From positions 34,991-98,990 of the IMG/VR virus record IMGVR_UViG_3300008259_000020: 64,000 nucleotides of DNA; one strand, given 5' to 3'. This document shows positions 1 through 15,894 of this stretch, in pieces. Origin of the DNA: a virus. Lineage: Duplodnaviria; Heunggongvirae; Uroviricota; Caudoviricetes. Below the pieces are notes generated by a model that was not told the DNA's origin, ran no database searches, and saw only the letters and a list, made by a program, of their open reading frames with translations. Position numbers and translations under genes: made by a program. The stretch's first letter is position 1. Every line of letters begins with the position of its first letter.

Positions 1-1358
1 TTACAGATGTATTTTGTTAGATAATGTCCCCAACCATAATAATACATTAGGATAGAGATCCAACTAAACATATGCCCAGCAAGCATGGTTTCATAATCTA
101 CAGTTCTTGTGCTGCAAACAGCGTCAGTGTATTCAACAATATAGTCTTTTAAGTCCTTGGTACTTAGATAATATGTATCAAGAGGAACAGTTTTAGTTTT
201 TATGCCCCAGCGTTGTTGATATTTAGGATCTCCCATTGTGGCATTATTGGTAATAACCAGTGGATGTATCATTAAGAAACTATCCTGCCCTAGGTCGATT
301 AACTTTTGTATGCCTGTTTTAAGAGATTCGTAAGTTTCTTCAGGCATTGGCCATATAAGTTCGCTGTACGTTGGAATGTTTTCTTCTTTATAACGTTCTA
401 AGTAATGCTTTACTTCGTTTTCTTTTATATTAAAACGTTCACTGGCTTCAAGAGTAGGGTCGTTAAAACTTTGCATAGCAAACGTAACACCTTTGAATAT
501 GTCAACGCCGTTTGCTTTATTCATCATTGCTATTTCAAAGTTGCGATCGACATTGTTTTTAGCCCAAGTAGCATCCCACCAACGTGGATAACCGTACTTC
601 TTTTTAGTGTCAATAACATATTGTGTTATTTCAACGTCTCTTTCTAGTAATCCCCAATTGCTATCGCATACACTGACATATTCTATTCTATTGCGACCCA
701 TCCAGTCAATTTCTGCTTTGACACGATTTATATCAAACAGTGTTAGTTTATTCCAGTAACCGTCGCCGATATCACAGAACGCACAATGATAAGGACAGCC
801 TCTTAGTGTTTCAAATGTGACTTGCCACATAGTATCTTCAGGATAATTGGCCATAATAGGTTCATAAAACCCTTCTAGTATAGGACTTGGTATGTCTGAT
901 ATATCTAGAACTCTAGCAGCCATTTTTGGCATGTGAGTGCGAGTTTGCACATGAGGAATGTCGTTGTAGTTGTCCTCTCTTGCTAATATTTCTTTAAAGG
1001 CACGTTCTCCTTCTCCGTGAACTGCTAGATCAAACATAGGATATCGGTCAAAAAACTCAGGATCACGTTTGTGAATTTGTGGTCCGCCTACAACAATCTT
1101 ACAATTGGGCCATAATTTTTTAATTTCACGTGCCAGTGTTTGATTATATTCCCAATTCCATACGTAACTACTCATAGCAACCATCGAAGGATTGTCCATA
1201 GTTTTTACATAATCAGTAGGAGGTATTTTTTCAATAAGTGTGTCTTTGAGATTCCAGTTTTCATTGCGAGCGTATAGCCATTGATAAGCAATTGCCAATG
1301 GTAAAAACTTATTAGGTCCGTAAGCATCAACAACTTGTACTAGATAAATGTTTTTCAT
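1..1358 (-). CDS. B12-binding radical SAM protein, partial (start at 1358, C-terminus runs off the left edge)
   Basis: Translating the minus strand from the ATG at 1358 gives MKNIYLVQVVDAYGPNKF... with a Rossmann-like N-terminal region and a canonical CPYHCAFCD (CxxxCxxC) radical-SAM cluster motif. The ORF track lists no complete ORF here, so the frame must continue past position 1. The start overlaps the upstream stop (ATGA). Confidence 0.6.
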   Translation of the reverse strand, partial: MKNIYLVQVVDAYGPNKFLPLAIAYQWLYARNENWNLKDTLIEKIPPTDYVKTMDNPSMVAMSSYVWNWEYNQTLAREIKKLWPNCKIVVGGPQIHKRDPEFFDRYPMFDLAVHGEGERAFKEILAREDNYNDIPHVQTRTHMPKMAARVLDISDIPSPILEGFYEPIMANYPEDTMWQVTFETLRGCPYHCAFCDIGDGYWNKLTLFDINRVKAEIDWMGRNRIEYVSVCDSNWGLLERDVEITQYVIDTKKKYGYPRWWDATWAKNNVDRNFEIAMMNKANGVDIFKGVTFAMQSFNDPTLEASERFNIKENEVKHYLERYKEENIPTYSELIWPMPEETYESLKTGIQKLIDLGQDSFLMIHPLVITNNATMGDPKYQQRWGIKTKTVPLDTYYLSTKDLKDYIVEYTDAVCSTRTVDYETMLAGHMFSWISILMYYYGWGHYLTKYIC

Positions 1359-1876
1359 CTTAAGAATTCACGCCAATCTAACTCGTACTTTATCGAATCA
1401 ATCTTATGTATACCAATAAGATAAAGAACGTAAGAAGCAACACTACTACCACGACCGACTCCCCAAACAATATTGTTTTCTCGCATAAAATCCACAAGAT
1501 AGATCATGTACCTAAGTAGATTTTCTAAATCACGATCTAAGTAGGCAGATAATTCTTCTGCCATACGCTGAACTTGTACGTGATTGTCGCAGCGTTTATA
1601 AAGATATTCTAGTACGTCTATATCTTTATAGTTATCTGGCATATACCAGTCTTTTTGACAAAGATTGTCAAATTCAGATTTATTCACGTCTAACGGTACA
1701 TAGGCAGTTAACGTTGGCAACCCTAGTTCTTCCGATGCTTGATTAAATTTTTCTACATCGTCACTGGGATCGCAAAGTACAACATGACACATGTCCTGTC
1801 GACCCGAATATATCATATCAATTAAGTCGCGATTACTGAATCGCGGAATACCGAGATTGTCTGTTTTCAAAAGCAT
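1355..1876 (-). CDS. DnaE-like (C-family DNA polymerase III alpha) internal fragment, 173 aa
   Basis: C-terminal ...YMIYLVDFMRENNIVWGVGRGSSVASYVLYLIGIHKIDSIKYELDWREFLR matches the DnaE segment ...[49 protein letters not shown]. The protein ends just before where the palm PDFDIDF motif would be. Confidence 0.5.
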   Translation of the reverse strand: MLLKTDNLGIPRFSNRDLIDMIYSGRQDMCHVVLCDPSDDVEKFNQASEELGLPTLTAYVPLDVNKSEFDNLCQKDWYMPDNYKDIDVLEYLYKRCDNHVQVQRMAEELSAYLDRDLENLLRYMIYLVDFMRENNIVWGVGRGSSVASYVLYLIGIHKIDSIKYELDWREFLR

Positions 1877-1884
1877 ACCTTATT

Positions 1885-2115
1885 TTAGTTGATTTTGATT
1901 AAATCGTCAAGATCATCTTTGCCTTGTTCTTGCTGTTTACGTTTTGCAGCAACACGGCGTTCTTCTAAATCTAATTTATATGTATCCATCAACAAAATCA
2001 TTTGTTGTCTCACGGCGTCATTGTCAGTCATAAAGTATATAGAATTCAATCTCAACAACTTTTGCTCAATCTGAGACTCAGTTAGTTTCGATAAGTCTTC
2101 TGACATAGGGTGCAT
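1885..2115 (-). CDS. hypothetical protein (76 aa, charged, coiled-coil-like)
   Basis: Codon-consistent ORF tightly packed against its neighbours. Confidence 0.4.
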   Translation of the reverse strand: MHPMSEDLSKLTESQIEQKLLRLNSIYFMTDNDAVRQQMILLMDTYKLDLEERRVAAKRKQQEQGKDDLDDLIKIN

Positions 2116-2678
2116 TATGCAAACATTCCAAGATATCTTACAAATGCAGTTACGCCGCCGTCAAATGTACTAACTTCAATTAATTTTGGTTCAGTTGACG
2201 ATGTTGCAGTAAGAGGGGATGGATAGCCAGTAGCATACTTAACAGTTCCGCCTTCTGATGTTAGTGTAACATTCCATACATTGTCGTCACTGTATAAGAA
2301 CAGTCTCATAACCGAATAGTTTTCTGCGGCAAAGTCAGTGAATCTTAGTGTAACATCCGATTCTACTTTTATAACATGAACGTGTCCAGTTCCCCAAGAA
2401 ATATCTACGTTTGTAGTACTGCTCAATCCAGTAGCATAAGTTTCATTGGTAAGTTGTGTGGTTGCTAATAATGCTGCTTCGATGATTTGATTTCCACCAA
2501 AGTTATTGTTTTGATCTACTCTTGCAACACCGTCCTGCAGATCACCTATTTCATTTCTTGCTGTATTTAACGCAGTCTTGATAATATTAAAATTATCACG
2601 GAACCCCTGACTATCGTTGTCAACCCCGGCTACTGGGAAGTTTTCATCTATTGTACTTGCTATAATTGTACTTGCCAT
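2115..2678 (-). CDS. tail-fibre associated protein with a degenerate form of the shared N-terminal fibre domain
   Basis: N-terminus ...DNDSQGFRDNFNIIKTALNTARNEIGDLQDG resembles the NDGTGDxLRxAFxKxNxNF motif of the downstream fibre paralogs. A TATTTATCG late-promoter-like motif lies upstream. Confidence 0.45.
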   Translation of the reverse strand: MASTIIASTIDENFPVAGVDNDSQGFRDNFNIIKTALNTARNEIGDLQDGVARVDQNNNFGGNQIIEAALLATTQLTNETYATGLSSTTNVDISWGTGHVHVIKVESDVTLRFTDFAAENYSVMRLFLYSDDNVWNVTLTSEGGTVKYATGYPSPLTATSSTEPKLIEVSTFDGGVTAFVRYLGMFA

Positions 2679-2711
2679 TTTAAATTCCTTAATTTGTAAT
2701 ATTTATCGTTG

Positions 2712-5700
2712 TTATACGTTAAATTGATAATTTGCGAACAATATATACTGTTCTGTGCTGTTGCTGGTTGTTGCATCTATGATATATCTGTCAACTTCAA
2801 AGTTCAGTAAACTAAAGTCAAACCCAGAATTTGTGATATTATTTTTTATAGTGCTGCTGTAACCAGGCTTTGTATATACCAACGGTAATGCTAATACATA
2901 GTCGATTTCCGATAAACTGCCATTTTGTGCAGTACGCATCCACAGTGGTAAAAAGTCTCTAGAACTTTCTCCAGTTTCTTTTATATTTGCTCTCATATTA
3001 TCAATATTTGATATGTATTTTTTAACATCGTTTTGCTGTGATGATTTTATTGCGTTACTGTCTGCTGTAATAGTGTTTGTAGTTGGTTTATATCTAAATC
3101 TCCACGGAGCACCGGCATCTCCCGAAGGCTGAACAATAGTAGCATTGAACACAATATTTGTACCATCTCTTGTTAGAACTCTCAGTGCGCCGTTTGCGTT
3201 GTAAATAACTTCACTGCCGTCTCTTACAATAATAATCAAGTCCTCAGACACAAGTGGTATTGCAATTCCACCGTCTCTACCGCCAAGGTCTATAGTAATA
3301 GAACCATCACGTCCGCCAAATATGTCGTCTAATGGTTCGTACTTAACACTGTCTACTGTAATTTTTCCAGATCTATTTACAGTTTGGAAGAATTGTTTTG
3401 CTTTTCCAGACCTCGGTTTAGCCGGGTCTATTAGATCAACATATACAACTTCGTAGATTACTTCGTTGCTGCCTGGGTTTTTAGCAACCGCAGTTTTCAA
3501 TTCTCCAAACAAGAAACGTTTCTTTTTGTGATTTTTTGCTGTTGCACTAACAAAAGTTGCAATATCGTTTGTTTCAATTCCTGCATATATCAACGCACGT
3601 AATTTTTTCTGTATACCAAAATTAGAATCGCTGGGTCTGTAAACACTTCTAGGATCGAAAATCCGTGAGTCATTGATAAATTCGTCAAAAGATTGTTTTT
3701 GAGCAGGTATCAAAAATGGCTGAACAAAAATATTACTGTAAGTAAGATTGTCTTTGTCGTTTATTGATAGAGTAAATGTTCTAGAAACAGCACTAAATCC
3801 AAATCGATCTCTTGCCAATACTGTAAATGTATAGTCTCTGTCCAGTGAAGTAGTACTGCCGTCAAAAGTAGTAGTGCCGCCATCAAAGAAAGTAAGTCCA
3901 GGGTTTTCTACTGTGCCCGATATCGGAACTTTACCTACAATTTCTCCATCTAGTTTCAGTGTTAATCCTGGTGGCAATCTGCCTGAAACTAGATTATATT
4001 TCATATTTGCATCAGGGACTGTACTTTCTGCTTGAACAGACAGTGTGCTAATTCTGTTGGCCGGTAAAACACCAAGATTGCTGTCAGTGATCCATGTAAT
4101 TGTACTGTCAATTTCTCCAAGCAGTTTCAGTGTAAATGTTTTGCTTTTTGATGCAGTATCGACTTCTGCACGTGGAAACGATTTACTAAATCCAGCACCA
4201 ACATAGGTAGCCAAACTCAATTGTCTGCCAACGTCAAATGTTCTAGTCAGTGGTTGATCTAATAGTATTCTATCATTTAATCCAATTTGTGTTAGAACAA
4301 TGGCAGTGCTATCGGAAGTATGAAATAGGCTATTAATGTAACTGGTATTTCTATTTTGTGCAGTTGCAGGAATAACCAATCTTATTTCAGTAATATTAGA
4401 TCCGCCTGTTATAGTAACATAAGCAGGATTACCGTTGGAAGTTAACAGTTCATTTAATTTATTTGCAATTGTAGTAGTAACTGGTCCGGTTACACCTTCG
4501 TTAAGTTCGATATATGATGTAAGACTGTTGGTTGAAATTTTCCATTCAACATAAGGATAGATACTTCCGATTCTATAAACTTCGGAATCACTGAACTTTA
4601 AATTCTTTCCAGAGTAAAATAATTTATCCGACTCGCTGAGTGTAGTAACAAAGAAATAGTCTGTTCCTGTTGCAGTTTTTGTAACATTTAGTGGTGTTGC
4701 TGCTGGAGTAGGCTGCAATGTTTCAGTAAGAGTAATTGTGTCATACAATACGTTACTACCGTCAACACTTTCTACAGTATACGATCTTTGTTCTATAGCA
4801 ATTTCTTTGCCCACCAACGACTGCAAATCGTCTAAGCCATCGACGAGAGTTCTTGGTAGTTTTGCAACTCGGAATGTGCTTGTTCCAGAAAAGGCATCTT
4901 CGTAAAAACTAGCAAATACAGTAACCACACCTTGTTCTGCATTAAATCGTGTAGCAGTAATAGTAAACTTATATTCTTTGGTAATTGCTGGTTGGTATGG
5001 AACAATACCGGCAATTTCTCCAGTTTCGGAATCTAGAGTCATACCTGGCGGCAGTTCGCTCTTAGAATTGTCGTCGTTAATAGTTTCTAAAAAGTAAAGT
5101 ATATCGCCTTCGACGTTTGTAGGATCTAATACGTCAAGGTATACTGTTATAAAATTGTTTGCTCTTCTAACACCCAGATCTGCTGGTGTTAACCATACCG
5201 GAGTTCTAAAGTATGTAATGTCGGCTGTAAATACTCCATCGGCAGCCTTCATAATTGTGTTGTCTGCTCTTGTAAAGTCGTCGCCTACAACATAAATTTC
5301 AAATCGACGTTTTGCAAATGACACATTATCTGCAACTGTTACATAAAACTCGTATACTCTGTTTAATTTTTTAGGTGCTCTTGTAGGTATGTTATAGTCA
5401 TAGCCTTTGGTGTCATAGTAGTATGTGTCTAAACCGTTATCACTTGGAATAGTATAATCAAAAGGATACTTTCCGTATTCTACAACGTCGTACCCTGCAT
5501 TTAGTGCATTTACATCTAACGCTAAAAGTGGATCAACTACGCCAACAAGTCTGCCATCTCTTGTTAACTCAATGCCAGGTGGTAATTCACCTGCGCCGTC
5601 GGCAACAAAAAATTCTAAGTTGTCGCCTGCTGGTAAGTCTGTATCAGTAGCAAGAAGTTGAAAATCAATAAAACTGCTGTCTAAAATAAACAGTACGTTA

Positions 5701-6290
5701 TTTGGACCAACTGGTAGTCTGCCCTCAGGAGTTAACCACTGTGGATTATCCGGACCTTTGGTAACAATAGTAAATGTTCTATCTAATTCGCTTGATGACG
5801 TTTTTGCTCTAATTACAAAAGTACTTTGTGTAGTTCTTGCAACTTCAAATAGAGTACCTACAATTGAGTTATTTTCTAGTCTTAGTCCTGCAGGCAATTC
5901 CCCGCTGATCACTTCAGTTGTTATATCAGAGGTTTCTTCTAGTGGAAGTGCAATATTAACAGTTGTTCTTTCTTCAAAATTACCTAGTTCTGTATTATTT
6001 GGTACTGTCCATCTTGGATAATTTTCAACTATTAATCTAAAAGTTCTATCTAGTACTCCGGCAGGTGTTTGTGCTCTTATTACAAAAGAAAAGTTTGTGT
6101 TGTAAACAACTGTAGGAGCAGTGCCTACTATTGCATTTCTTTCTATTGCTAGACCAGTTGGCAAACTACCACTTAAAAAAAAGGTATTGAGTTCTGGCAT
6201 TTGCACTACCGGCAAAGGAATGTAAACTTCAGAATTTTCTGGTAATCTTCCTAGTTCTGTATTATTTGGTACTGTCCATTGTGGTAGCAT
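2712..6290 (-). CDS. large tail-fibre/structural protein (1192 aa) with N-terminal Ig-like (He_PIG / dystroglycan-type cadherin-like) repeats
   Basis: Repeated ~95-aa units WTVPNNTELG...LPxGLxLxxNxIVGT...FVIRAxT...LDRTF. Identical DNA repeats at 5984-6016 and 6250-6281. Gly/Thr/Asn-rich beta-type composition. Confidence 0.6.
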   Translation of the reverse strand: MLPQWTVPNNTELGRLPENSEVYIPLPVVQMPELNTFFLSGSLPTGLAIERNAIVGTAPTVVYNTNFSFVIRAQTPAGVLDRTFRLIVENYPRWTVPNNTELGNFEERTTVNIALPLEETSDITTEVISGELPAGLRLENNSIVGTLFEVARTTQSTFVIRAKTSSSELDRTFTIVTKGPDNPQWLTPEGRLPVGPNNVLFILDSSFIDFQLLATDTDLPAGDNLEFFVADGAGELPPGIELTRDGRLVGVVDPLLALDVNALNAGYDVVEYGKYPFDYTIPSDNGLDTYYYDTKGYDYNIPTRAPKKLNRVYEFYVTVADNVSFAKRRFEIYVVGDDFTRADNTIMKAADGVFTADITYFRTPVWLTPADLGVRRANNFITVYLDVLDPTNVEGDILYFLETINDDNSKSELPPGMTLDSETGEIAGIVPYQPAITKEYKFTITATRFNAEQGVVTVFASFYEDAFSGTSTFRVAKLPRTLVDGLDDLQSLVGKEIAIEQRSYTVESVDGSNVLYDTITLTETLQPTPAATPLNVTKTATGTDYFFVTTLSESDKLFYSGKNLKFSDSEVYRIGSIYPYVEWKISTNSLTSYIELNEGVTGPVTTTIANKLNELLTSNGNPAYVTITGGSNITEIRLVIPATAQNRNTSYINSLFHTSDSTAIVLTQIGLNDRILLDQPLTRTFDVGRQLSLATYVGAGFSKSFPRAEVDTASKSKTFTLKLLGEIDSTITWITDSNLGVLPANRISTLSVQAESTVPDANMKYNLVSGRLPPGLTLKLDGEIVGKVPISGTVENPGLTFFDGGTTTFDGSTTSLDRDYTFTVLARDRFGFSAVSRTFTLSINDKDNLTYSNIFVQPFLIPAQKQSFDEFINDSRIFDPRSVYRPSDSNFGIQKKLRALIYAGIETNDIATFVSATAKNHKKKRFLFGELKTAVAKNPGSNEVIYEVVYVDLIDPAKPRSGKAKQFFQTVNRSGKITVDSVKYEPLDDIFGGRDGSITIDLGGRDGGIAIPLVSEDLIIIVRDGSEVIYNANGALRVLTRDGTNIVFNATIVQPSGDAGAPWRFRYKPTTNTITADSNAIKSSQQNDVKKYISNIDNMRANIKETGESSRDFLPLWMRTAQNGSLSEIDYVLALPLVYTKPGYSSTIKNNITNSGFDFSLLNFEVDRYIIDATTSNSTEQYILFANYQFNV

Positions 6291-6299
6291 TTTTAGTCC

Positions 6300-7034
6300 T
6301 TATACAACTGTACCTAGATCAACTGTTCCTGCTGTAGGTGAAACAAATGATCCAAAATCTACTCCAACTTGGTTGATTACCCAACTTAAAATACTGTTGC
6401 TAGTAATACTTGAAAATTCTCCAAAATCAAAACTCTCAATATAACGTCCTATAGAGTCGTAGTAATTTACTGTTTCGCTTCCTGTTTCTGAACTTTGTAT
6501 ATCAGTCAGTGTCACTTTTGTTGCAACGACACTAGGTGTTACAATACTTTGTGTAGCAATATAATTAACATTTGTAATTTGTTTATTATTAGCATTAAGG
6601 TTTCCACCAAGTACTGGTGTTGTTTCATTAACCAAGGCACCGTTGATTGTAATAGTTTTATTATTTTCGTTAATTCCTACAACAATTCCGCTGGCACCAA
6701 AGATATTGTAGTTTAAGCCAGGACCTGCAATCAAACTTCCAGCATCGCCTGTGATAATAAAGTTACCAGTAGGGGATATGGTATCAATAACAATAGTATT
6801 GTCAAGTTCTTGTAATGTTACACTGTTTCCAGCAACTAAACGTCTAAAATTTAAAACGTTGTCAACTGTGTTAGCGTACACTCTAGCACCAGCAGAACCT
6901 AAGTTTGCTGCACTTTGAAATGCAATCAGTTCAATCTCTTGAAAGTTTTGATTTATCTTGATAAAGGCTTCTCGAAGATCATCACCTGTTCCGTCGTTAG
7001 CCGAGTTGCCCACATTGATATTTTGAATAGCCAT
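6300..7034 (-). CDS. tail-fibre protein paralog (244 aa) with the conserved N-terminal domain
   Basis: N-terminus MAIQNINVGNSANDGTGDDLREAFIKINQNFQEIE, shared with 8393-9256 and 9256-14844. Confidence 0.6.
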   Translation of the reverse strand: MAIQNINVGNSANDGTGDDLREAFIKINQNFQEIELIAFQSAANLGSAGARVYANTVDNVLNFRRLVAGNSVTLQELDNTIVIDTISPTGNFIITGDAGSLIAGPGLNYNIFGASGIVVGINENNKTITINGALVNETTPVLGGNLNANNKQITNVNYIATQSIVTPSVVATKVTLTDIQSSETGSETVNYYDSIGRYIESFDFGEFSSITSNSILSWVINQVGVDFGSFVSPTAGTVDLGTVV

Positions 7035-7064
7035 TTTAATCCCCGTTTTAAGTATTTATCGATA

Positions 7065-8360
7065 TTACGGAGCCGCAGGAGGGTTGTACAAGTTAACCCA
7101 TCCTGCTGTAGGTACAAAACTAACATAGGACGCTATACCAACGTATACTTGAACTTGACTTGTAGTTTCATTGTAAATTATGTCACCCAATTGCGGGGTT
7201 AATGCATTTCTTTGTGTAGTAGTTAATACTGGCAACTGAAACACACCTGCAAATATGCTAACTCTACTTGTTGCAGTTCCTGGAGTAATATTAATACTAC
7301 CAGCCGCGCCAATAGTTACATTAGACTTTCCAGGAATACCTTGTAGATCACCGTAGTAAACTGTATTTTGAACATACGAATTACTAAAATATCTCGAGTC
7401 TGACCCTAGGTCATAGACATTGGTTGTATCGGGTATGATACTGTTATAAAATGAAATTGCACTTTGACTTTTTATCTGTAGTGTGCTAGTGCCGCCGATG
7501 ATCAATATTCCAGCGTTTGAATCAACAGTTATTGTTTCATTGGTGTCAAACAATAGATTTCCTGTACTTCTTAGTGATGTACCGGAAACTTGCCCATTTG
7601 CAGTCAACCCTCCTACTGTAATACTATTTGTAGTTGCGTTACTGCGATCTGTAATAGCATCTAGTGTATCTGCTTCGGCAGTTAGATAATTGTTTGGGTT
7701 AGTAAGACCGTTATAAGGAGTATACCCTAGAGCATCTATAACATCTCCTGATGTTAAAGTAAAACTTGTTGTTGAAAATTGAATGCCATTTTCTGATCCA
7801 TTAATTTGTAAAAACTTACCAGCCTGACCTGAATAGGTGTTGGGTGTATCAGTTAAACCAGTTAATGAAAGTTCACTTATGTATCCTTCGGGGTTAAAAT
7901 CATCGTAAGGAGTATATCCTAGAGCATTAATAATATCGCTGCTAGATAGTACGGGCTTATTGTTTAAGTCGTTGTAATTTCCAGTTGTTGCAACAGTTGC
8001 TAGTACGGGCTTATTGTTTAAGTCGTTATAATTTCCAGTTGTTGCAACATTAGCAAATGCAGGAACATTATTTAAATCGTCCCAGTCTACTAGTTCTAAG
8101 ATGTTAGTATCGTTTATTCTAACCACACCTGTGACATTTAAGTTAGCGTTAGTAGAAATACTACCTGTAACAGTAACAGATCCACCTATAGTTGCGTTGC
8201 CCGATGTTTGAACAGTTGCAGAACTTATACTGTTAATCACTGATAAACTAGTAACGCCTACTAATCCGTTGCCAGTTAAATTAAGATTATCTCCAGACGG
8301 CAATTCTTTAATTTGGTTACCCGAACTAGTGTCAACAATAAGTGGAAATCTATTTGCCAT
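7065..8360 (-). CDS. tail-fibre protein (431 aa) with internal tandem repeats
   Basis: Tandem 18-aa repeat NNKPVLATVATTGNYNDL encoded by a 2x54-bp DNA tandem at about 7945-8052. Repeated ALGYTPY motif. Gly/Thr/Asn-rich. Confidence 0.55.
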   Translation of the reverse strand: MANRFPLIVDTSSGNQIKELPSGDNLNLTGNGLVGVTSLSVINSISSATVQTSGNATIGGSVTVTGSISTNANLNVTGVVRINDTNILELVDWDDLNNVPAFANVATTGNYNDLNNKPVLATVATTGNYNDLNNKPVLSSSDIINALGYTPYDDFNPEGYISELSLTGLTDTPNTYSGQAGKFLQINGSENGIQFSTTSFTLTSGDVIDALGYTPYNGLTNPNNYLTAEADTLDAITDRSNATTNSITVGGLTANGQVSGTSLRSTGNLLFDTNETITVDSNAGILIIGGTSTLQIKSQSAISFYNSIIPDTTNVYDLGSDSRYFSNSYVQNTVYYGDLQGIPGKSNVTIGAAGSINITPGTATSRVSIFAGVFQLPVLTTTQRNALTPQLGDIIYNETTSQVQVYVGIASYVSFVPTAGWVNLYNPPAAP

Positions 8361-8392: not shown

Positions 8393-9256
8393 TTACCAAG
8401 TGTCGCCCGACCAAGCAACTCGTTTCCAAATGTTAGTGACACCGTCATGGTTTTGTGTGCAGTAGTACATATATGTACTGTCAAATGCTACTGATCCCAC
8501 GTAATCATCGCTAACACCTATACTTGTAGATGGCACCGCGGAAAGTATTCTTACATATTCCGTAATAAGAACAACGGTTTTACCACCGCTAGTATTTCCA
8601 TCTCCGATTTGTACTTGCGATATTCCATCTTGGGAAACTATAAAGTTTGTATAGACGTTGTTATTATCAACTTCCCCGACAATCTTACCTGCCACACCAT
8701 CTACCAGTAGTGTGCTGTCGTCAGCGAATACACTACCAGTGACATCACCATCTAGTGAAGTTTGTGGTCCTGTATAGGCAGTAATCTGTACCGTGGCATC
8801 TGGAAATGTCAACGCTCCTGCACTATCAAATTTCCAGATTCGACTTCCGCCGACATACGTAACTTCGATTCCGGCTCCGTAGCCATCCTCCACCCAAATG
8901 TAAGTACCGTCTGTACTTTGTAACTGAGCGAGCGGTGCTTGGATATCAATAATTTCGCCTGTAGGGTTAGTTATACCATTGGCATCAAAAACAATATTAC
9001 CCAAACTGGGTATAGTCGGTTTATTGGTTAAATCATTGTAACTGCCACTGAATGTGGAATATTGACTAAGACTAACGCTGTTGCCACCACTTATAGCTAA
9101 TGTGTTTCCTACTAAAGTCAATGTTTGAGCATCAGTGTTTACTGCACGATCATACAATTCAGTAAAGTTGCTGTTGATCTTAGTAAAGGCTGTACGTAGC
9201 GGATCGCCATCGCCTTTGTTTGCACTCGACCCTATGTTAATGTTCTGCTTTGCCAT
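8393..9256 (-). CDS. tail-fibre protein paralog (287 aa) with the conserved N-terminal domain
   Basis: N-terminus MAKQNINIGSSANKGDGDPLRTAFTKINSNFTELY. Its start overlaps the stop of the upstream gene at 9256. Confidence 0.6.
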   Translation of the reverse strand: MAKQNINIGSSANKGDGDPLRTAFTKINSNFTELYDRAVNTDAQTLTLVGNTLAISGGNSVSLSQYSTFSGSYNDLTNKPTIPSLGNIVFDANGITNPTGEIIDIQAPLAQLQSTDGTYIWVEDGYGAGIEVTYVGGSRIWKFDSAGALTFPDATVQITAYTGPQTSLDGDVTGSVFADDSTLLVDGVAGKIVGEVDNNNVYTNFIVSQDGISQVQIGDGNTSGGKTVVLITEYVRILSAVPSTSIGVSDDYVGSVAFDSTYMYYCTQNHDGVTNIWKRVAWSGDTW

Positions 9257-12200
9257 TATACTCTTCCTACTACTACTTCAACAACGCCTCTAACATCGTC
9301 TAACTTGTTAGAAACTGCTTTACCTATTACAGTACCAACACGAGGATCATTGTCAACTATGCCGTATCCTGGTATTGCACTTGTAACAATCAAGTCACCT
9401 TTTTGTACCTTGCCAAGAACCTTAACTGGTACACGCCCTTGCAGTGCAACCCCAGTTACAAAATCGCCTTCTAATGCACTGTTCATCAAGTGCGCTGGAT
9501 TGGTTGTAACAACACCTGCTACACGTCGATCGCCCTTAACATTGGTTACAGTAACTTCTTGTTCGCCACCAAACACCAGTACAGTACCGGGTTCGTATGC
9601 TACGTCAGAAAGATAGTTTTCTGCCAAGTCAGCATACAATGCTTCTGTAGCAGTACCGTTGAATGTTGTAGCATAAACAGTATTCCAACGTCTTGTACTT
9701 AGACCCAGCATCTGTCCGCTGTCTGTTGGACTGTTTAACCCAGGTATAATATTACCACCCATAGTAAGTATACCAGCAACAGTAACGTTATTAGGAAGAC
9801 CTATAGTAACTGTTCCACCTGCTTGTGCTACTGTGGTTTCGTTTGCAGTTGCAGCAAATGTCAGTGTTCCTCCTAGAGCGATACTACTTGCTGTAGTGCC
9901 ATCTGTTACAGAAATGCTGCTGTTTGCAAGTTTGCTATTTGCAATTCCGCTTGTTAGTATTGATATCCATCCACTGCTAGCAGTAAATTCTGCACTGTTA
10001 AAACTAGCAAGACCTCTATCGCCTTGTGTGATTCCAGTTGCGTTTGCTCTAGTTGTGGCAGCGTTCATACTCAATTTACTTTGAGCAATTGCTGCTGATG
10101 CACTTACATCAGCATTAACAATAGATCCTGAGTTGTATTGTGCGCTTAATACACCTGCAGAATAAGTAAATGTAACGTCGCTAACCAACGGATCTGAAGA
10201 AAATGCTTCGTTGGTCCACTTGCTAGTAGATCCGTTATAAACTAAAATCTCAGCATTTGCAGGAGTTACAATTGCAACATCGTCTAGTTCTGACAATTCA
10301 TCTTGTGCTGCTAGTAATCCATCAACATAATTTTTATTAACAGCATCTGTTCCAGCAGTCGGGGATCCTAGGTTAGTAATTTGATTACCACCCATACTTA
10401 GATTGCCAGTCATAGTATCGCCGGCTTTTCTAATAGCGCCGCCGCCGATGATGTCTCCTAATAGTAGTGCATCACCGTCTCTGTCCCATCCTAAACGTTT
10501 GTTAATGTAACCTTCGACTGCGGTTTCAGTAGGTACACTATCGCCAGTTGCGTTAGTAAATGTAGTATCTGGTGAAAACTCGTTAACTCTAACACCACGT
10601 TTGAAACCAATACCGTCGATGTTTGTTAGAACAAGTGCAGCGTTAAATGTAACACGACCGGTGCCTTGGTCAACTGTAAAGAATCTACCTACACGGAAGA
10701 AACCGTCTTGGTCAGTACTTGCAAAGAACACACGTCCTCTTACACGTTCTTGTACCTGTGCTTTGGTATTGAATCCGTTGCTATCCACTGCTTGTTCGTC
10801 AGTTACTGCGGCTTCAATTGGTGCACCGTAAATTCTATCAGGATAGTTAGAAGTGTTGTATCCACCAGTACCGATATCCAGGAAGTCATGACTTGTTGCA
10901 CGAGTAGTACTGATATTAACAGTGATATTGGCAGTTGCCCCAGTATCTAAACCTGCTTTGAGTGTGATATTGTCACCTATTGAACTGTCTGCTCTTACAG
11001 CAATACCTGTTCCAACATACGTAGGGTGAATACTGTACACATCAGTAAATGTAATAATACCTAGAGTATCACCGTTTAATCCAGATGTTCCGCTGGTATC
11101 AACAATTTCAGAATAACCTGTAATTTCAAACTGTTTGCCGCCCCAAGTAAATACCATTCCTAGTATTCTTGTTTTATCAACAGTATCGAGTCTTGCAATT
11201 ACAATATTAAGATCTCCTACTGTTCTTCCAAGTGTAGTTCCACCTGTAGGAGCAGTTCCTATAGTGCTGCTAACTGTGTAGTTTACACCTAAGTTGTAAC
11301 TGGCTCTATCATTGTCCACATTCAAGTCAATGTAAGAAAAGTTATCATCAACACCAACAACTGCCTGTGTACCAACAACCGGAATACCACTAACAATTGT
11401 ATTTTCAAATGCAATTGTTCTGTATGTATAAACTGGATACTCGTTAAATATAAAAGCAGTACTAGGTCTTGTTAGAACGTCTGAAGTGATTCCGTTTACA
11501 TAGAAGTTTTGTTTTGCACGATAAACTGCCAACGTGCCAAACCCAGTAAGTTCTTGGATACCAGTGTCTGCGGTTGCAACACCACTGGTTAGATCAAGTC
11601 TCCATATTTTTGCACGAATAGTACTTGTACTGTCGCACAATGAACTTACAAGGTTTGATGGAATTTCTAATCCTGTATCGGTAACGCTTACAACTTCGTA
11701 AGGTTGATACAATCCAGTGGTATGAAGAATTTCAATTTCGCTGGCATTTAGCGGATAGTCGGTTAAGTCGTAAACATAAACAGCAACATCGTTTTCATTT
11801 GCAGTAAAGTTTCTATTTACAACTGTATATGGTGCAGTTCCTAGAGCAGTGCTGCCGCCTTCAACTATTTGATCACTAGCATTAAAACTACCACCGGTTA
11901 TGTTTTCAATATACAGTATGGTATTGCCGCCCACTACATCAAAAAATGCCAATTGACCTGTAACTGTTCCAGTTACTTGATCTTGCTTGATATTTTCGCC
12001 AGCAGTGAGCAATGCACTTACATCGCCTGTTACTGTTACTTCTTGTTCAACTACATATATTTTTGCAGGCTGTACAAGAGGCTGTACAAGACTTGCTACT
12101 CTTGAAACTTCGTCAGGATCGCTGCCTTCTGCAACCATACCAAACGTACCGTAACTGTTGTTACCAGTTAGTGATCGTATCTGCGAACCGTTGCGTGAAT

Positions 12201-14844
12201 AATAACCTGTGTGACAATAATAAGTAAACACACTTACAAGTTCTGATAATGCGTTGTTTGTTGCAATTACACCATAACCTAAATCATTGATTTGTGTGTA
12301 GTCGTTTGCAAGCATACTCTTGTTACCAGAACCCTGGAGAACAGTATCTATTTCCCCAAGAGCACTATCAACCATGTTGTCTAAACCAATGCCGTTGTTG
12401 CTGGTTTCATCAAGGATAAGTGTCGCTGTAGCAAGACCAGCACCGTCGTTGGGCACATAATTGGCAATTGCATTAACTTGATATCTTGCACCATTAATAA
12501 AGAACGAACACGGAGTTCTAGGTTTTCTAATACCAAGTCCACTTGTTGCAGGTGCTTCGATTTGTAGTGTAAAGTTGTCGTCTTTGTCTACAATAGTAAT
12601 TGGCATGTTGTAAACATAACCGTCAATAAACATACCACCGCGGAATGCCTTGCGATTCAAACTTCCGCTAAAACTAGTACAAGTTTGTGCATATGGTGAT
12701 CTAGTTAAAATACTACCAGTTGGATCCAACGCCATCATAAATCCACCATGACGTTGACCAGTAATATTACGTAACAGTGTGGCGTCGTTCATTAAGAAGA
12801 CATCCATTTCGTTGTTGTTCTTTGGCGTACTATTTGGGTTACTTGGATCTGTTAGATAGTGATAACCATAATAACCAATTGTTGAACTGTCACTAGGATC
12901 AACATGCATATCGCCGCCTGTTGCAGTAGTTAACCCGTCGATTGTAGCATCTCTATAGAAATAAGTTCTAGCATGTATCGAAGTCGACACACCTGCTGCT
13001 GGACGAATAATCACACGACGGAATTCATCACCCTTGATAGATACGTTTTCAGGAACACGTATTGGTAGTTGTTCATCGTAAATTCCAGATTCGACTCTGA
13101 TTGCAATTTGATCTCTTTTTACAAAGTTTGCATATTCAAGTTCTTCATTGGCAACAAATTCTTTGGTGTCAACTAATTGAAGTTGCACAGTATCATATGT
13201 TGGTGCACCAACAGTATCGGCACCTCTTTGATAAGTTACAACCTGTCCAACTGCACCAGATGTTTTACCTCTAATTAACTTTCCTGGAATAATGTCGACA
13301 TTTGGGTTAGCAATACTTGGATTTCCTGACTGTGTGGTGTACTTGTCAGGACCACTGAATACAAAGATAGTATAATAGTTTGATGATTCAACTAAACTTG
13401 GGTCAGCAACTGCTGGGTTAATCATTGCAAGAACATCATCAAATCTGTTTGATGCTGCTGTATACCAAGGATTTGATATAGTTCCTAGTGCAGTTGCAAT
13501 TTCAGCAAGCATTCTTGTTTTCGCTCTTTGTATTGCATATGCAGTTTCAGTATATTGACCTTGACTGCTAATTGCAAATTCAGCACTTGGATTCGAAAAG
13601 TATCTTAAACCTGCGTAGCGTGATAGATAATTATGTTTTATCAATCCTGTGCTTGCACCAATATCGAGTTTGATAGAATCTAAAATTAAACCTAGATCTC
13701 TGCGGCAAATAGACTCTGTATAGATAAATGTAGGATATTCATCGGCAATATCAGCAATTACATCATCAATAATACCAGACTTTTCCAGTGCAATAGTATC
13801 GTAAACTGTTTCCTGATCGCCACTGATTGAATATCCAAACGGATTACCAGATGTGTCTGTAGCAACAATATACGAAGTTGGTTCATCTAAACCATCTGTG
13901 TATGTAATATCCATAACATATGGTCCAAGGTCGACTGGCGATGCTTCTTGAATTCTTTCTGCTTTAGCACAAGCCGCAGCAATACTTGCAAATGAGTATG
14001 CTTCACTTCTGCCTTGTTTTCCGGGCGGGGTAGTTAATTGGTCATCACTGCCATTTTTAGTAACAAACAAATTAACAGTTGACGAATACGATGTACTGTC
14101 TACATAAAACTTTGTTGCTGCTTGGAGATCTGCGGTACTGTTTGGAGTACCAAAACCCTGGAATGGAAATGGATGGTCCGAAAGTGTTAGAGCACCGGTC
14201 ATAGTGTCCCCAGACTTCTTTACCACTTCTTGTACACGAGGTACTTGTGTACCACTTGCGCCTGCAGGAACATTTAATGCTCCGGTCATAGTATCGCCGG
14301 TAACATTTATATATTTGTTATCTGCATATCCTTTGGTTATTACTAGATTTGCGGTAGTAATAGGATCTCCAGGATGTGCAGCGTTCCAGTCTGTTACAAG
14401 AGTGCCAATTGTGGCATCGTTTGTTAACAAGTTTTGTGTTGTATTATTATATGCTGCTACAGAACCTAATTGTAATGGATTGGTAGTTTCTGGTGACGGA
14501 TCGTCTGCAAGTTTGGTATTAACTGCACGGACAACAAGTTTATTGTCAACAACGTTAAATGCTATGGTGTTGGCGGTATCCAACGGATTGTTTGTTCCTG
14601 CATCAGAAACTAAATCATAAAAGTCAACTCCTGTGCCATCTTGTTTAACTAAAACAACTTTGCCTTCGTTACCCAAGTAGGTATCTGGTGTATCGTTTAG
14701 TGTTGTAAATCCAATTTGACCACCTAGACCAAAAACTGCATAAAGTTCGCCGAAGTTTTCATTTACTTTGCGAAACGACTCACGAATACTGTCGCCTGTG
14801 CCGTCATTGCCCTCTACGCCGATATTGACTTCTTGTTTTGCCAT
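9256..14844 (-). CDS. giant tail-fibre/tailspike protein (1862 aa), beta-helix-like
   Basis: N-terminus MAKQEVNIGVEGNDGTGDSIRESFRKVNENFGELY. Duplicated GDTMTGAL fibre motif. Long Gly/Asn/Thr-rich parallel-beta-like middle. Distinct C-terminal ~120 aa (LYADLAENY...) that may be a chaperone-like module; I could not confirm that. Confidence 0.6.
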   Translation of the reverse strand: MAKQEVNIGVEGNDGTGDSIRESFRKVNENFGELYAVFGLGGQIGFTTLNDTPDTYLGNEGKVVLVKQDGTGVDFYDLVSDAGTNNPLDTANTIAFNVVDNKLVVRAVNTKLADDPSPETTNPLQLGSVAAYNNTTQNLLTNDATIGTLVTDWNAAHPGDPITTANLVITKGYADNKYINVTGDTMTGALNVPAGASGTQVPRVQEVVKKSGDTMTGALTLSDHPFPFQGFGTPNSTADLQAATKFYVDSTSYSSTVNLFVTKNGSDDQLTTPPGKQGRSEAYSFASIAAACAKAERIQEASPVDLGPYVMDITYTDGLDEPTSYIVATDTSGNPFGYSISGDQETVYDTIALEKSGIIDDVIADIADEYPTFIYTESICRRDLGLILDSIKLDIGASTGLIKHNYLSRYAGLRYFSNPSAEFAISSQGQYTETAYAIQRAKTRMLAEIATALGTISNPWYTAASNRFDDVLAMINPAVADPSLVESSNYYTIFVFSGPDKYTTQSGNPSIANPNVDIIPGKLIRGKTSGAVGQVVTYQRGADTVGAPTYDTVQLQLVDTKEFVANEELEYANFVKRDQIAIRVESGIYDEQLPIRVPENVSIKGDEFRRVIIRPAAGVSTSIHARTYFYRDATIDGLTTATGGDMHVDPSDSSTIGYYGYHYLTDPSNPNSTPKNNNEMDVFLMNDATLLRNITGQRHGGFMMALDPTGSILTRSPYAQTCTSFSGSLNRKAFRGGMFIDGYVYNMPITIVDKDDNFTLQIEAPATSGLGIRKPRTPCSFFINGARYQVNAIANYVPNDGAGLATATLILDETSNNGIGLDNMVDSALGEIDTVLQGSGNKSMLANDYTQINDLGYGVIATNNALSELVSVFTYYCHTGYYSRNGSQIRSLTGNNSYGTFGMVAEGSDPDEVSRVASLVQPLVQPAKIYVVEQEVTVTGDVSALLTAGENIKQDQVTGTVTGQLAFFDVVGGNTILYIENITGGSFNASDQIVEGGSTALGTAPYTVVNRNFTANENDVAVYVYDLTDYPLNASEIEILHTTGLYQPYEVVSVTDTGLEIPSNLVSSLCDSTSTIRAKIWRLDLTSGVATADTGIQELTGFGTLAVYRAKQNFYVNGITSDVLTRPSTAFIFNEYPVYTYRTIAFENTIVSGIPVVGTQAVVGVDDNFSYIDLNVDNDRASYNLGVNYTVSSTIGTAPTGGTTLGRTVGDLNIVIARLDTVDKTRILGMVFTWGGKQFEITGYSEIVDTSGTSGLNGDTLGIITFTDVYSIHPTYVGTGIAVRADSSIGDNITLKAGLDTGATANITVNISTTRATSHDFLDIGTGGYNTSNYPDRIYGAPIEAAVTDEQAVDSNGFNTKAQVQERVRGRVFFASTDQDGFFRVGRFFTVDQGTGRVTFNAALVLTNIDGIGFKRGVRVNEFSPDTTFTNATGDSVPTETAVEGYINKRLGWDRDGDALLLGDIIGGGAIRKAGDTMTGNLSMGGNQITNLGSPTAGTDAVNKNYVDGLLAAQDELSELDDVAIVTPANAEILVYNGSTSKWTNEAFSSDPLVSDVTFTYSAGVLSAQYNSGSIVNADVSASAAIAQSKLSMNAATTRANATGITQGDRGLASFNSAEFTASSGWISILTSGIANSKLANSSISVTDGTTASSIALGGTLTFAATANETTVAQAGGTVTIGLPNNVTVAGILTMGGNIIPGLNSPTDSGQMLGLSTRRWNTVYATTFNGTATEALYADLAENYLSDVAYEPGTVLVFGGEQEVTVTNVKGDRRVAGVVTTNPAHLMNSALEGDFVTGVALQGRVPVKVLGKVQKGDLIVTSAIPGYGIVDNDPRVGTVIGKAVSNKLDDVRGVVEVVVGRV

Positions 14845-15571: not shown

Positions 15572-15894
15572 TCAGAACGTCTATTAAATGCTTGTATTGC
15601 TGTTTTGCGTTCGTTGCTTTCAATTCGTAGTTTACGTTCTAATGTGGCTAGTCTAGCATCTTGCTCTCTAACCTTCTGTTCAAGACTTTGAACATACTTT
15701 TGTGTAGGCACACTACGTTCGACACCATCTTCGCCGAGTATAGAATAGTGGTCAGCGCCTTGTCCGCGCAAACCACCTAGTACACGATTGGTGTTTTTTG
15801 TTTCCTGTGACGGTCTGTTGCCGCCATACATGCGATTTAAATAACTCATACAGTATTTATTTTTTAGACTGTTCAAACAACTCAATAGAGGCAA
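15568..15894 (-). CDS. hypothetical protein (108 aa)
   Basis: ORF flanked by neighbouring genes. Confidence 0.35.
   Translation of the reverse strand: MPLLSCLNSLKNKYCMSYLNRMYGGNRPSQETKNTNRVLGGLRGQGADHYSILGEDGVERSVPTQKYVQSLEQKVREQDARLATLERKLRIESNERKTAIQAFNRRSD

What the first reader, a model, noticed from the sequence alone, without database searches (positions are those of the whole stretch)
1355..1876. Orphan 173-aa fragment of a C-family replicative polymerase (DnaE) wedged between the tail-fibre module and a radical SAM gene
The ORF reproduces the DnaE segment spanning the end of the PHP region through the GPGRGS...ERFLNPER box but stops before the catalytic palm. No continuation is seen in either flanking ORF. 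Possibilities are a split polymerase whose other parts lie outside the window, a domesticated fragment with a new role (for example a structural or assembly function within the fibre operon), or a gene remnant.
Basis: partly seen in the sequence, partly recalled or inferred. Interest (0 to 1): 0.55.

Follow-up and report, generated by a model that had tools for sequence, protein, structure and literature searches.

The report
N-terminal half of split phage polymerase
The 173-aa ORF is a conserved phage gene for the nucleotide-binding half of a two-piece, stripped-down DNA polymerase III-like enzyme, a family already described in T4-related jumbo phages, so it is ordinary for this group although its activity has never been tested.

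Summary
The ORF is real: 1355-1876, minus strand, 173 aa. Residues ~96-173 match the start of the bacterial Pol III alpha (DnaE) palm. The protein stops at EFLR, about six residues before the catalytic DxD strand.

It is not an orphan, a remnant or a fibre protein. It matches PHROG 11127 over its full length. Thousands of environmental homologues have the same length and the same end point, and cultured jumbo phages (PA5oct/Cassandra, 121Q/RaK2-like) carry it too. In all of them it sits in the same block: N-unit, small protein, GroES-like protein, clamp loader, PhoH. The radical SAM gene is a rare insertion (2 of 80 relatives).

Iyer et al. 2021 (PMC7824862) described this as the N-terminal, NTP-binding unit of a minimal Pol III alpha split into two distantly encoded proteins. 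I identified the partner C-unit (~190 aa, PHROG 11778). It carries the DxDxD and KxD motifs and a finger segment. It occurs in the same cultured phage genomes and on the same 357-kb contig as the N-unit of a relative with a 66%-identical N-unit.

The C-unit is absent from this window, and I could not recover this phage's own copy. The claimed PHP remnant is not supported. Verdict: new member of a known, biochemically untested family.

The parts
1355..1876 (-). Complete gene for the N-terminal unit of the split minimal Pol III alpha-like enzyme (173 aa plus TGA stop)
   Evidence: The ORF is listed. PHROG 11127 matches it at E 4e-45, covering profile positions 12-171 of 171. Pfam PF07733 matches at E 8.5e-11. 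The gene is identical in six assemblies.
1361..1591 (-). [quoted passage not shown]
1433..1465 (-). WGVGRGSSVAS (residues 138-148): invariant GRGS(S) motif, equivalent to E. coli DnaE G361-R362-G363-S364 and presumed to bind the triphosphate
   Evidence: These columns are invariant in the family alignments A2 and A3. The alignment to E. coli [10 protein letters not shown] is. The role in NTP binding comes from published knowledge of Pol-beta-fold nucleotidyltransferases and Iyer et al. 2021.
1592..1876 (-). Residues 1-95: family-specific N-terminal region of unknown role. It is conserved in the aquatic clade and divergent in PA5oct and 121Q. No PHP similarity is detectable.
   Evidence: Alignment A2, no Pfam hit, and AF2 pLDDT of 31-69 in this region.
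1355..1358 (-). ATGA overlap: the TGA stop of the N-unit (1355-1357) overlaps the ATG of the downstream radical SAM gene (1356-1358)
   Evidence: Read directly from the sequence. Gene calls in L005-L010 show the same layout.
1..1358 (-). Context only, not part of the system: 5' part of a 631-aa B12-binding radical SAM gene. It is a lineage-specific insertion between the N-unit and its usual downstream neighbour.
   Evidence: Pfam B12-binding and Radical_SAM hits. The full gene is visible in L005/L006. It is adjacent to the N-unit in only 2 of 80 related loci.
1885..2678 (-). Context only: two conserved upstream neighbours (76 aa and 187 aa). They follow the 1192-aa fibre-like gene (2712-6290). 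The 76-aa ORF stops 8 nt before the N-unit ATG.
   Evidence: ORFs. Homologues lie upstream of the N-unit in 48/80, 78/80 and 79/80 related loci respectively.

Best explanation
ORF 1355-1876(-) encodes the N-terminal unit of a two-polypeptide, minimal C-family (Pol III alpha / DnaE-like, Pol-beta-fold) nucleotidyltransferase. This enzyme is characteristic of T4-related 'group 2.2' jumbo phages and their many aquatic relatives.

The N-unit supplies the first palm helices and the invariant GRGS loop that holds the incoming nucleotide's triphosphate. A separately encoded ~190-aa C-unit supplies the rest. It lies next to the helicase/primase/DnaB genes in relatives. It carries the DxDxD strand, the third catalytic Asp (KxD), and a shortened finger segment (IRPxK, YxFKKxH). 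It has no thumb.

The two chains are complementary. The N-unit ends at E. coli position ~393 and the C-unit begins at ~399-401. They are inferred to associate non-covalently and rebuild one active site, working beside the phage's family B replicase and its clamp and clamp loader.

Shown here: homology, family membership, conserved end point, synteny, purifying selection, and co-occurrence of the two units in other genomes.

Inferred: physical association, polymerase activity, and the presence of the C-unit in this particular genome.
For: Family membership:
- PHROG 11127 matches the full length at E 4e-45.
- Pfam PF07733 matches at E 8.5e-11.

Size and shape of the family:
- About 8000 90%-identity clusters exist, and the top 120 are all 170-176 aa.
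- At 50% identity there are 776 clusters with E<=1e-10. Nearly all of the best 150 are 150-190 aa and end where the query ends. None extends past that point.
- All members end in EFL[RK], and the GRGSS motif is invariant.

Orthology by synteny: the order is N-unit, p121, GroES-like p134, clamp loader (59% identical to Cassandra's), PhoH on the opposite strand, then two structural genes. This matches Cassandra gp87-95 and 121Q gp56-63.

The partner:
- Cassandra_0017 is a 200-aa protein with DVDIDV, KHxxGVYF, KIDxLN, IRPxK and YxFKKAH motifs.
- It matches PHROG 11778 and also hits the full-length DnaE family PHROG 405.
- Its AF2 model has pLDDT 91, and the top 14 Foldseek hits are all Pol III alpha, best E 3.6e-4.

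Co-occurrence:
- The N-unit is found in 99 phage records and the C-unit in 96, with near-identical genus counts. Many records appear in both tables, including PA5oct, 121Q, RaK2, GAP32, CBB, Xoo-sp13 and RsoM2USA.
- Both units lie on IMGVR_UViG_3300044701_000569 (357.6 kb), whose N-unit is 66% identical to this one.
- The C-unit family is equally abundant in metagenomes.

Selection: pN is 0.17-0.26 against saturated pS of 0.70-0.79.

Published description: Iyer et al. 2021, PMC7824862, sections 3.4.1 and 3.5.
Against: - No C-unit is present in the 64-kb window (tblastn; profile HMM on all six frames). None is in the fetched flanks, about 10 kb beyond each window end.
- I could not recover this phage's own C-unit. 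Four candidates came from other samples.
- No biochemical or genetic test of the family was found in the literature library.
- The enzyme would lack the thumb, PHP, beta-clamp-binding and OB domains, so processive polymerase activity is uncertain.
- The AF2 model of the N-unit alone is mediocre (pLDDT 64.5, and below 50 around the GS loop).
- Residues 1-95 remain unexplained.
- The gene is consistently adjacent to fibre-like structural genes (79/80 relatives).
Confidence: 0.75

Rival explanations
1. The N-unit is a standalone non-catalytic protein. For example, it could be a decoy or regulator that binds host Pol III holoenzyme parts, nucleotides or the phage clamp loader, and it would act independently of the C-unit.
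For: The protein lacks all catalytic Asp residues. It is encoded far from the C-unit and close to the clamp loader. It has a 95-residue N-terminal region with no DnaE counterpart. No experiment links the two units.
Against: The phyletic distributions of the N- and C-units are almost identical (99 versus 96 phage records with the same genera). The two chains abut exactly at the same DnaE position with no overlap. The most conserved residues are the NTP-binding GRGSS motif, which has no obvious use without the metal-binding half.
Confidence: 0.14
2. The protein has a structural or assembly role within the tail-fibre/baseplate operon, as a domesticated fragment.
For: The gene is co-directional with the fibre-like genes and only 8 nt downstream of their last ORF, with no terminator between them. 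This adjacency is conserved in 79/80 related loci. In 121Q and PA5oct a structural protein also lies just upstream.
Against: In the PA5oct record, virion proteins found by mass spectrometry carry an 'ESI-MS/MS' note. The orthologue EST35_0288 does not carry it, while its neighbour EST35_0285 does. The downstream conserved neighbours are replication and nucleotide-metabolism genes. The conservation pattern is that of an NTP-binding palm, and the protein co-occurs with the C-unit.
Confidence: 0.04
3. The ORF is one exon or extein of a normal DnaE that is joined to the rest by intron splicing, split-intein trans-splicing or recoding.
For: In Clostridium phage CS266P3, a compact DnaE is interrupted at exactly this junction (...FSRFM | DIDVDF...) by an I-HmuI-type HNH endonuclease gene, with a weak group I intron signal.
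Against: There is no intein or Hint domain in the N-unit or the C-unit. No Rfam intron match occurs within 1-8000 of the window. The next ORF is a radical SAM enzyme. In relatives the C-unit lies 5 to about 200 kb away with its own ATG. Both units have their own full-length PHROG families.
Confidence: 0.03
4. The ORF is a decaying gene remnant or an annotation or assembly artefact.
For: It is short and covers only part of a large enzyme.
Against: Thousands of same-length homologues exist. dN is far below dS. The sequence is identical in six assemblies. The motifs are invariant.
Confidence: 0.01

Closest known systems
Split minimal DNA polymerase III alpha of group 2.2 jumbo phages, N-terminal unit (Iyer, Anantharaman, Krishnan, Burroughs & Aravind 2021, Viruses 13:63; PHROG 11127). 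Examples: PA5oct EST35_0288, Cassandra gp87, 121Q gp56.
   Same: Same length (169-173 aa), same C-terminal end point (EFL[RK]), same invariant GRGSS motif, and the same gene neighbourhood (small protein, GroES-like protein, clamp loader, PhoH). Identity to the cultured-phage orthologues is 39-46%.
   Different: This copy comes from an uncultivated aquatic phage with 41% GC. Its neighbourhood includes heme oxygenase, bilin reductase and curli-secretion genes. A 631-aa radical SAM gene and other genes are inserted between the N-unit and the clamp loader. The N-terminal 95 residues differ strongly from those of PA5oct and 121Q.
Bacterial replicative Pol III alpha (DnaE, e.g. E. coli b0184; PDB 2HNH, 5FKU) and PolC
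   Same: Residues ~96-173 are homologous in sequence and fold to the first part of the palm, including GPGRGS...ERFL.
   Different: DnaE is a single chain of about 1160 aa with PHP, full palm, thumb, fingers, beta-binding and OB domains. This protein has none of the catalytic Asp residues and no detectable PHP domain. Even with its partner it would total only about 360 aa and lack a thumb.
Homing-endonuclease/intron-interrupted compact DnaE of Clostridium phage CS266P3 (OP172777.1)
   Same: The break in the coding sequence falls at the same position, between the ...RF[LM] helix and the DxDxD strand.
   Different: In CS266P3 the two parts are adjacent and separated only by an HNH endonuclease gene. 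The N-part keeps a full PHP domain and the C-part keeps full fingers and HhH domains, so the parts are probably rejoined by splicing.
Cyanobacterial split-intein DnaE (DnaE-n / DnaE-c; from general knowledge)
   Same: A C-family polymerase catalytic subunit is encoded by two distant genes.
   Different: The cyanobacterial halves carry split-intein fragments and are ligated into a full-length DnaE, and the split lies much further downstream. Here no intein sequence is present, and the two chains presumably stay separate.

Membership tests
Split minimal Pol III alpha, N-terminal unit (Iyer et al. 2021; PHROG 11127) | [quoted passage not shown] | tested here: met
   The protein is 173 aa. PF07733 profile positions 18-94 of 260 are matched. 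It ends at E. coli position ~393. Relatives share the end point.
Split minimal Pol III alpha, N-terminal unit (Iyer et al. 2021; PHROG 11127) | Full-length match to the family profile | tested here: met
   phrog_11127 matches at E 4.2e-45, with residues 8-173 aligned to profile positions 12-171 of 171.
Split minimal Pol III alpha, N-terminal unit (Iyer et al. 2021; PHROG 11127) | Conserved NTP-binding G-S motif (GRGS) | tested here: met
   W138, G139, G141, R142, G143, S144, S145 and S148 are invariant in 23- and 52-sequence alignments.
Split minimal Pol III alpha, N-terminal unit (Iyer et al. 2021; PHROG 11127) | A separately and distantly encoded C-terminal unit (DxD, third Asp, finger segment) in the same genome | tested here: inconclusive
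   The C-unit is absent from the window and from the fetched flanks about 10 kb beyond each end. It is present in the same genomes as the N-unit in cultured phages and on the same 357-kb contig in a relative. The rest of this phage's genome could not be read.
Split minimal Pol III alpha, N-terminal unit (Iyer et al. 2021; PHROG 11127) | Host genome is a T4-related (group 2) phage with RFC-like clamp loader and family B polymerase | tested here: inconclusive
   A clamp loader 59% identical to Cassandra's lies about 5 kb downstream. T4 gp9/10-like baseplate proteins match only below the Pfam cut-off. ATP-dependent DNA ligase and RNA ligase genes are present. No family B polymerase lies within the sequence available. 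Cassandra has one.
Split minimal Pol III alpha, N-terminal unit (Iyer et al. 2021; PHROG 11127) | The two units assemble into an active nucleotidyltransferase | not testable with these tools
   No multimer prediction or experiment was available, and no published assay was found.
Bacterial DnaE / Pol III alpha (C-family replicase) | N-terminal PHP domain | tested here: not met
   There is no PF02811 hit at E<=1. Profile alignment to a PHP-containing DnaE covers only residues 100-173.
Bacterial DnaE / Pol III alpha (C-family replicase) | Catalytic Asp triad (E. coli D401, D403, D555), fingers, beta-binding and OB domains in one chain | tested here: not met
   The protein stops before D401. tblastn with E. 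coli DnaE finds no other piece in the window.
Split-intein DnaE | Intein N-fragment at the C-terminus of the N-protein | tested here: not met
   There is no Hint or intein domain. The chain ends at the homology boundary with no spare residues.
Intron/HEG-interrupted DnaE (as in phage CS266P3) | Downstream exon nearby and an intron RNA or homing endonuclease at the junction | tested here: not met
   The next gene is a radical SAM enzyme. No Rfam match at E<=0.1 occurs in 1-8000. No C-unit is in the window.

The most novel reading that the evidence does not exclude
The N-unit and C-unit together (~360 aa in two chains) may form the smallest functional C-family DNA polymerase. It would have no PHP, thumb, clamp-binding or OB domains. 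It would act as a second, specialised polymerase in the T4-like replisome of a very abundant group of aquatic large phages, for instance in lagging-strand synthesis, repair or primer extension. The split itself may have arisen from a homing-endonuclease or intron insertion at the ...ERFL|DxDxD junction, as still seen in Clostridium phage CS266P3, followed by genomic separation of the halves. An even less conventional reading that the data do not exclude is a non-replicative nucleotidyltransferase activity.
Probability: 0.4. Interest if true: 0.65.

Novelty: new member of a known kind. Interest (0 to 1): 0.3.

Why it matters
For annotation, this ORF and its thousands of metagenomic homologues are often labelled 'DNA polymerase III alpha subunit' or 'hypothetical'. 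They should be read as one half of a two-gene enzyme. They are not a truncated replicase, and they are not a sign that the phage uses a DnaE replicase.

For biology, both halves are extremely common in aquatic viromes. Each protein search filled its 8000-candidate limit, with about 7900-8000 significant 90%-identity clusters. No function has been demonstrated for either half. A ~360-aa two-chain C-family polymerase would set the minimal requirements of this polymerase family and would bear on ideas about its origin (Iyer et al. 2021). The coincidence of the split point with a mobile-element insertion site in another phage's DnaE suggests a testable route by which the split arose.

Tried and rejected
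1. Looked for the rest of DnaE in the window. tblastn with E. coli DnaE, the CS266P3 C-part and the Cassandra C-unit found nothing. A C-unit profile HMM on all six frames also found nothing.

2. Ran Pfam on 30 of the larger window ORFs. No further DnaE domains appeared.

3. Tried to find this phage's own C-unit.
- The window sequence is not in IMG/VR.
- The 263-kb ENA contig could only be read +-10 kb around the gene.
- One hop upstream led only to accessory genes.
- Four candidate C-unit proteins came from other samples. They had been chosen by source pattern or by the GC content of the locus.

4. Sequence-only profile searches against the PDB were weak. The N-unit gave E 0.009 to 5LEW and the C-unit gave no hit. 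hhalign against single DnaE sequences was weak for the C-unit. Fold comparison was needed instead.

5. Tested the PHP-remnant idea for residues 1-95. It is not supported, and the AF2 confidence there is too low to judge the fold.

6. Promoter, terminator and T4 late-promoter (TATAAATA) scans were at chance level and uninformative.

7. The split-intein, intron and remnant readings were rejected, as set out under the rival explanations.
Full report
THE OBSERVATION

The ORF exists as described. It starts at an ATG at 1876 and ends at a TGA at 1355-1357 on the minus strand, giving 173 aa. Its stop overlaps the ATG of the next gene as ATGA. That next gene is a B12-binding radical SAM enzyme. The upstream 76-aa ORF ends 8 nt before the start codon. 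The same 522 nt are found without a single difference in six independent public assemblies: two from JGI, two from ENA and two from NCBI. The gene is therefore not an assembly artefact.

HOW MUCH OF IT IS DnaE

- Pfam PF07733 (the Pol III alpha NTPase domain) matches residues 96-172 to profile positions 18-94 of 260. The score is 42.4 bits against a cut-off of 23.9, with E 8.5e-11.
- A family profile aligns residues 100-173 to the N-part of a genuine phage DnaE, from Clostridium phage CS266P3, at 97.9% probability and E 6e-13.
- The same profile aligns residues 127-173 to E. coli DnaE 347-393.
- The AlphaFold2 model is mediocre overall (pLDDT 64.5), but residues ~80-135 are confident.
- Foldseek also ranks nine Pol III alpha chains first, but not significantly.

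The similarity is therefore specific to C-family polymerases.

The chain stops at ...LDWREFLR, which is equivalent to E. coli ...FERFLN393. This is about six residues before D401 and D403.

The claim that the ORF also covers 'the end of the PHP region' is not supported. There is no PHP hit, profile matches begin near residue 96-100, and the model has low confidence in residues 1-77.

IT IS A CONSERVED STANDALONE FAMILY

- A search of 5.8 billion proteins filled its 8000-candidate limit. The best 120 hits are all 170-176 aa.
- An exhaustive HMMER search of 50%-identity cluster representatives found 1160 clusters, 776 of them at E<=1e-10. Nearly all of the best 150 are 150-190 aa and end where the query ends. 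No fused form appears among them.
- All aligned members end in EFL[RK]. W138, G139, G141, R142, G143, S144, S145 and S148 are invariant.
- Against relatives, non-synonymous change is 0.17-0.26 per site while synonymous sites are saturated at 0.70-0.79.
- PHROGs has a dedicated 171-position family for this protein, phrog_11127, annotated 'DNA polymerase'. The ORF matches it end to end at E 4e-45.

CULTURED RELATIVES AND SYNTENY

tblastn finds the protein in 99 phage records. These are mainly PA5oct-like Pseudomonas phages (44% identity) and RaK2/121Q/GAP32-like enterobacterial jumbo phages, along with Xoo-sp13, RsoM2USA and a Vibrio phage. Every match runs to residue 173. The Cassandra copy is 169 aa and the 121Q copy is 172 aa.

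The neighbourhood is orthologous. In the window phage the N-unit is followed by these genes, read from the public contigs L005 and L006:
- the radical SAM gene;
- a 121-aa protein;
- a 134-aa GroES-like protein;
- MazG and an exonuclease;
- a clamp loader 59% identical to Cassandra's;
- DHFR and ThyA;
- PhoH on the opposite strand;
- two structural proteins.

Each of p121, p134, the clamp loader, PhoH and the two structural proteins has its counterpart in the same order in Cassandra. All but PhoH also have one in 121Q.

Among 80 related IMG/VR loci, the neighbours are distributed as follows.

| Neighbour | Position relative to the N-unit | Loci with it (of 80) |
|---|---|---|
| Fibre-like 1192-aa gene | upstream | 79 |
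| 187-aa gene | upstream | 78 |
| 76-aa gene | upstream | 48 |
| p121 | downstream | 79 |
| p134 (GroES-like) | downstream | 71 |
| Radical SAM gene | adjacent | 2 |

The gene is therefore not 'wedged' at random. It occupies a fixed position at the border between a structural block and a replication and nucleotide-metabolism block. The radical SAM gene is the newcomer.

WHAT IS ALREADY KNOWN

Iyer et al. [quoted passage not shown] Weinheimer and Aylward 2022 (PMC9123017) noted PF07733 as the one domain distinguishing their largest cluster of marine jumbo phages.

I found no experimental study of the proteins. A 2026 review of jumbo phages does not mention them.

THE PARTNER

In Cassandra, a 200-aa protein annotated 'DNA polymerase' (Cassandra_0017) lies between a helicase and the primase/DnaB genes. 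It carries these motifs:
- DVDIDV, compare E. coli D401-F-D403-V-D405;
- KHxSGVYF, compare KHAGGVVI at 509;
- GYMKIDLLN, compare GLVKFDFLG, which contains D555;
- IRPSK, compare FRPGP;
- YHFKKAHAISYAL, compare YGFNKSHSAAYAL.

The thumb region that lies between the DxD strand and KHAGGV in DnaE is missing.

This C-unit is PHROG 11778, and it also hits the full-length DnaE family phrog_405. Its AF2 model is confident at pLDDT 91. The top 14 Foldseek hits are all Pol III alpha chains, with a best E of 3.6e-4 and probability 1.00. D3, D5, D7, K63, D65, R132, P133, F161, K162 and H165 are invariant across 46 sequences.

The N-unit ends at about E. coli position 393, and the C-unit starts at about 399-401. 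The two chains are therefore complementary, with no overlap.

CO-OCCURRENCE OF THE TWO UNITS

The C-unit occurs in 96 phage records with the same genus distribution as the N-unit's 99. The four extra Clostridium records carry an unsplit, interrupted DnaE.

| Genus | N-unit records | C-unit records |
|---|---|---|
| Escherichia | 34 | 34 |
| Pseudomonas | 11 | 11 |
| Klebsiella | 10 | 11 |
| Salmonella | 8 | 8 |
| Erwinia | 8 | 8 |
| Xanthomonas | 4 | 4 |
| Yersinia | 4 | 4 |
| Clostridium | 4 | not among the genera listed |

Many individual records appear in both tables, with the two genes 5-45 kb apart.

In IMG/VR, contig IMGVR_UViG_3300044701_000569 (357.6 kb) carries an N-unit 66% identical to this one at about 244.5 kb. 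It also carries a C-unit at about 36.6 kb on the same strand.

The C-unit family is as abundant as the N-unit family, with 7901 clusters at E<=1e-20. Its context is conserved: helicase, Zn-finger protein, C-unit, primase, DnaB.

WHAT COULD NOT BE SHOWN

The C-unit is not in this window. It is not in the fetched sequence about 10 kb beyond each window end either.

The window's phage is not in IMG/VR. Its public contigs could only be read +-10 kb around a given gene. Four guessed C-unit candidates belonged to other samples.

That this particular genome encodes a C-unit is therefore a strong inference and has not been observed directly. Assembly of the two chains and polymerase activity are also inferred.

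MECHANISM PROPOSED

The N-unit contributes the first palm helices and the GRGS triphosphate-binding loop. The C-unit contributes the three metal-binding aspartates and a reduced finger element. The two would associate non-covalently to form a composite Pol-beta-fold active site.

The enzyme would work alongside the family B replicase. The N-unit's conserved position next to the clamp loader, and the C-unit's position next to the primase and helicase, are consistent with a replisome-associated role. Iyer et al. suggested synthesis of one strand, or repair.

I put about 0.75 on this overall picture. Family membership itself is near certain.

RIVALS

- An independent, non-catalytic role is disfavoured (~0.14). 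The phyletic profiles of the two units match, and the N-unit keeps an NTP-binding motif.
- A structural role has little support (~0.04). The PA5oct orthologue lacks the virion mass-spectrometry tag that its neighbour carries.
- Splicing, an intein or recoding is very unlikely (~0.03). There is no Hint domain, no intron RNA and no nearby exon.
- A gene remnant is excluded.

A SIDE OBSERVATION ON ORIGIN

In Clostridium phage CS266P3, a compact DnaE is interrupted at exactly this junction by an I-HmuI-type HNH endonuclease gene. The N-part has PHP plus palm and ends ...FSRFMRK. The C-part starts MDIDVDF. There is a weak, sub-threshold group I intron signal of 18.5 bits, E 0.053.

This suggests that the split may have begun as a mobile-element insertion at this highly conserved site. 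That is my speculation and is not shown.

VERDICT

This is a genuine and strongly conserved gene. It is a new, uncultivated-phage member of a family already described by comparative genomics and represented in PHROGs.

Of its three interpretations, the first, a split polymerase, is the supported one. Interest is modest for this instance. The family itself remains an untested and very abundant candidate minimal C-family polymerase.

Noticed in passing
window 1-1358 (-), continuing beyond the window start (L006 10519-12414): A 631-aa B12-binding radical SAM gene is translationally coupled (ATGA) to the N-unit. It occupies this position in only 2 of 80 related loci (L076 and L088, ~65% identity), so it looks like a recent insertion. 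Its function is unknown.
   Followed up: partly
L004 (Clostridium phage CS266P3, OP172777.1) 3068-6634: A compact DnaE is encoded as two ORFs of 402 aa and 508 aa. They are separated by an I-HmuI-like HNH endonuclease gene exactly at the ...RFM | DIDVDF junction where the jumbo-phage enzyme is split. There is a weak group I intron hit (18.5 bits, below the gathering score). Both ORFs are annotated 'hypothetical' in the record.
   Followed up: partly
window 56909-63986 (-), and upstream in L173/L174: An unusual accessory cluster sits here: a CHASE2-adenylate/guanylate cyclase (680 aa), a FecR-domain protein, and CsgG and CsgF curli-secretion components. Just beyond the window end lie heme oxygenase, a ferredoxin-dependent bilin reductase, ClpS, HSP20, IMPDH and ribosomal protein S21. 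The pigment genes hint at a cyanobacterial host.
   Followed up: no
window 43850-44977 (-), 49919-50554 (-), 51633-52517 (-): These ORFs encode an ornithine/DAP/arginine decarboxylase, a PP-loop (TilS-like) ATPase and an N6/N4 DNA methylase.
   Followed up: no
window 15857-16927 (-), 19753-20370 (-), 31286-32698 (-): These ORFs encode a UvdE UV-endonuclease, a ClpP protease and a 470-aa SPFH/Band 7 protein, all inside a phage genome segment.
   Followed up: no
window 22510-23835 (-), 36152-37006 (-): These ORFs encode an ATP-dependent DNA ligase and a T4 Rnl1-like RNA ligase. Both fit a T4-related replication and repair toolkit.
   Followed up: no
window 6300-7034 (-), 8393-9256 (-), 9256-14844 (-): Two proteins show weak, sub-threshold T4 gp9/gp10 N-terminal domain matches. 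They lie next to 1862-aa and 1192-aa fibre-like proteins. This suggests that the 'tail-fibre module' is a baseplate and fibre block.
   Followed up: partly
L012 (Cassandra) 23806-29032; L187 3909-6331: In Cassandra, the family B DNA polymerase is annotated as two CDSs separated by a homing-endonuclease CDS. In one environmental relative, the helicase next to the C-unit carries weak intein/Hint hits and is broken into pieces. Mobile elements frequently interrupt replication genes in this phage group.
   Followed up: no
L138 2505-3008; L186 17134-18291: In aquatic relatives, a peptide-deformylase-like ORF lies directly upstream of the C-unit (assigned by eye from its sequence, not scanned against a family library), and a serine hydroxymethyltransferase lies downstream of DnaB.
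   Followed up: no
H98/H99 (Alishewanella phages, ~141 kb): The C-unit also occurs in phages well below the 200-kb 'jumbo' threshold. The split enzyme is therefore not strictly a jumbo-phage trait.
   Followed up: no
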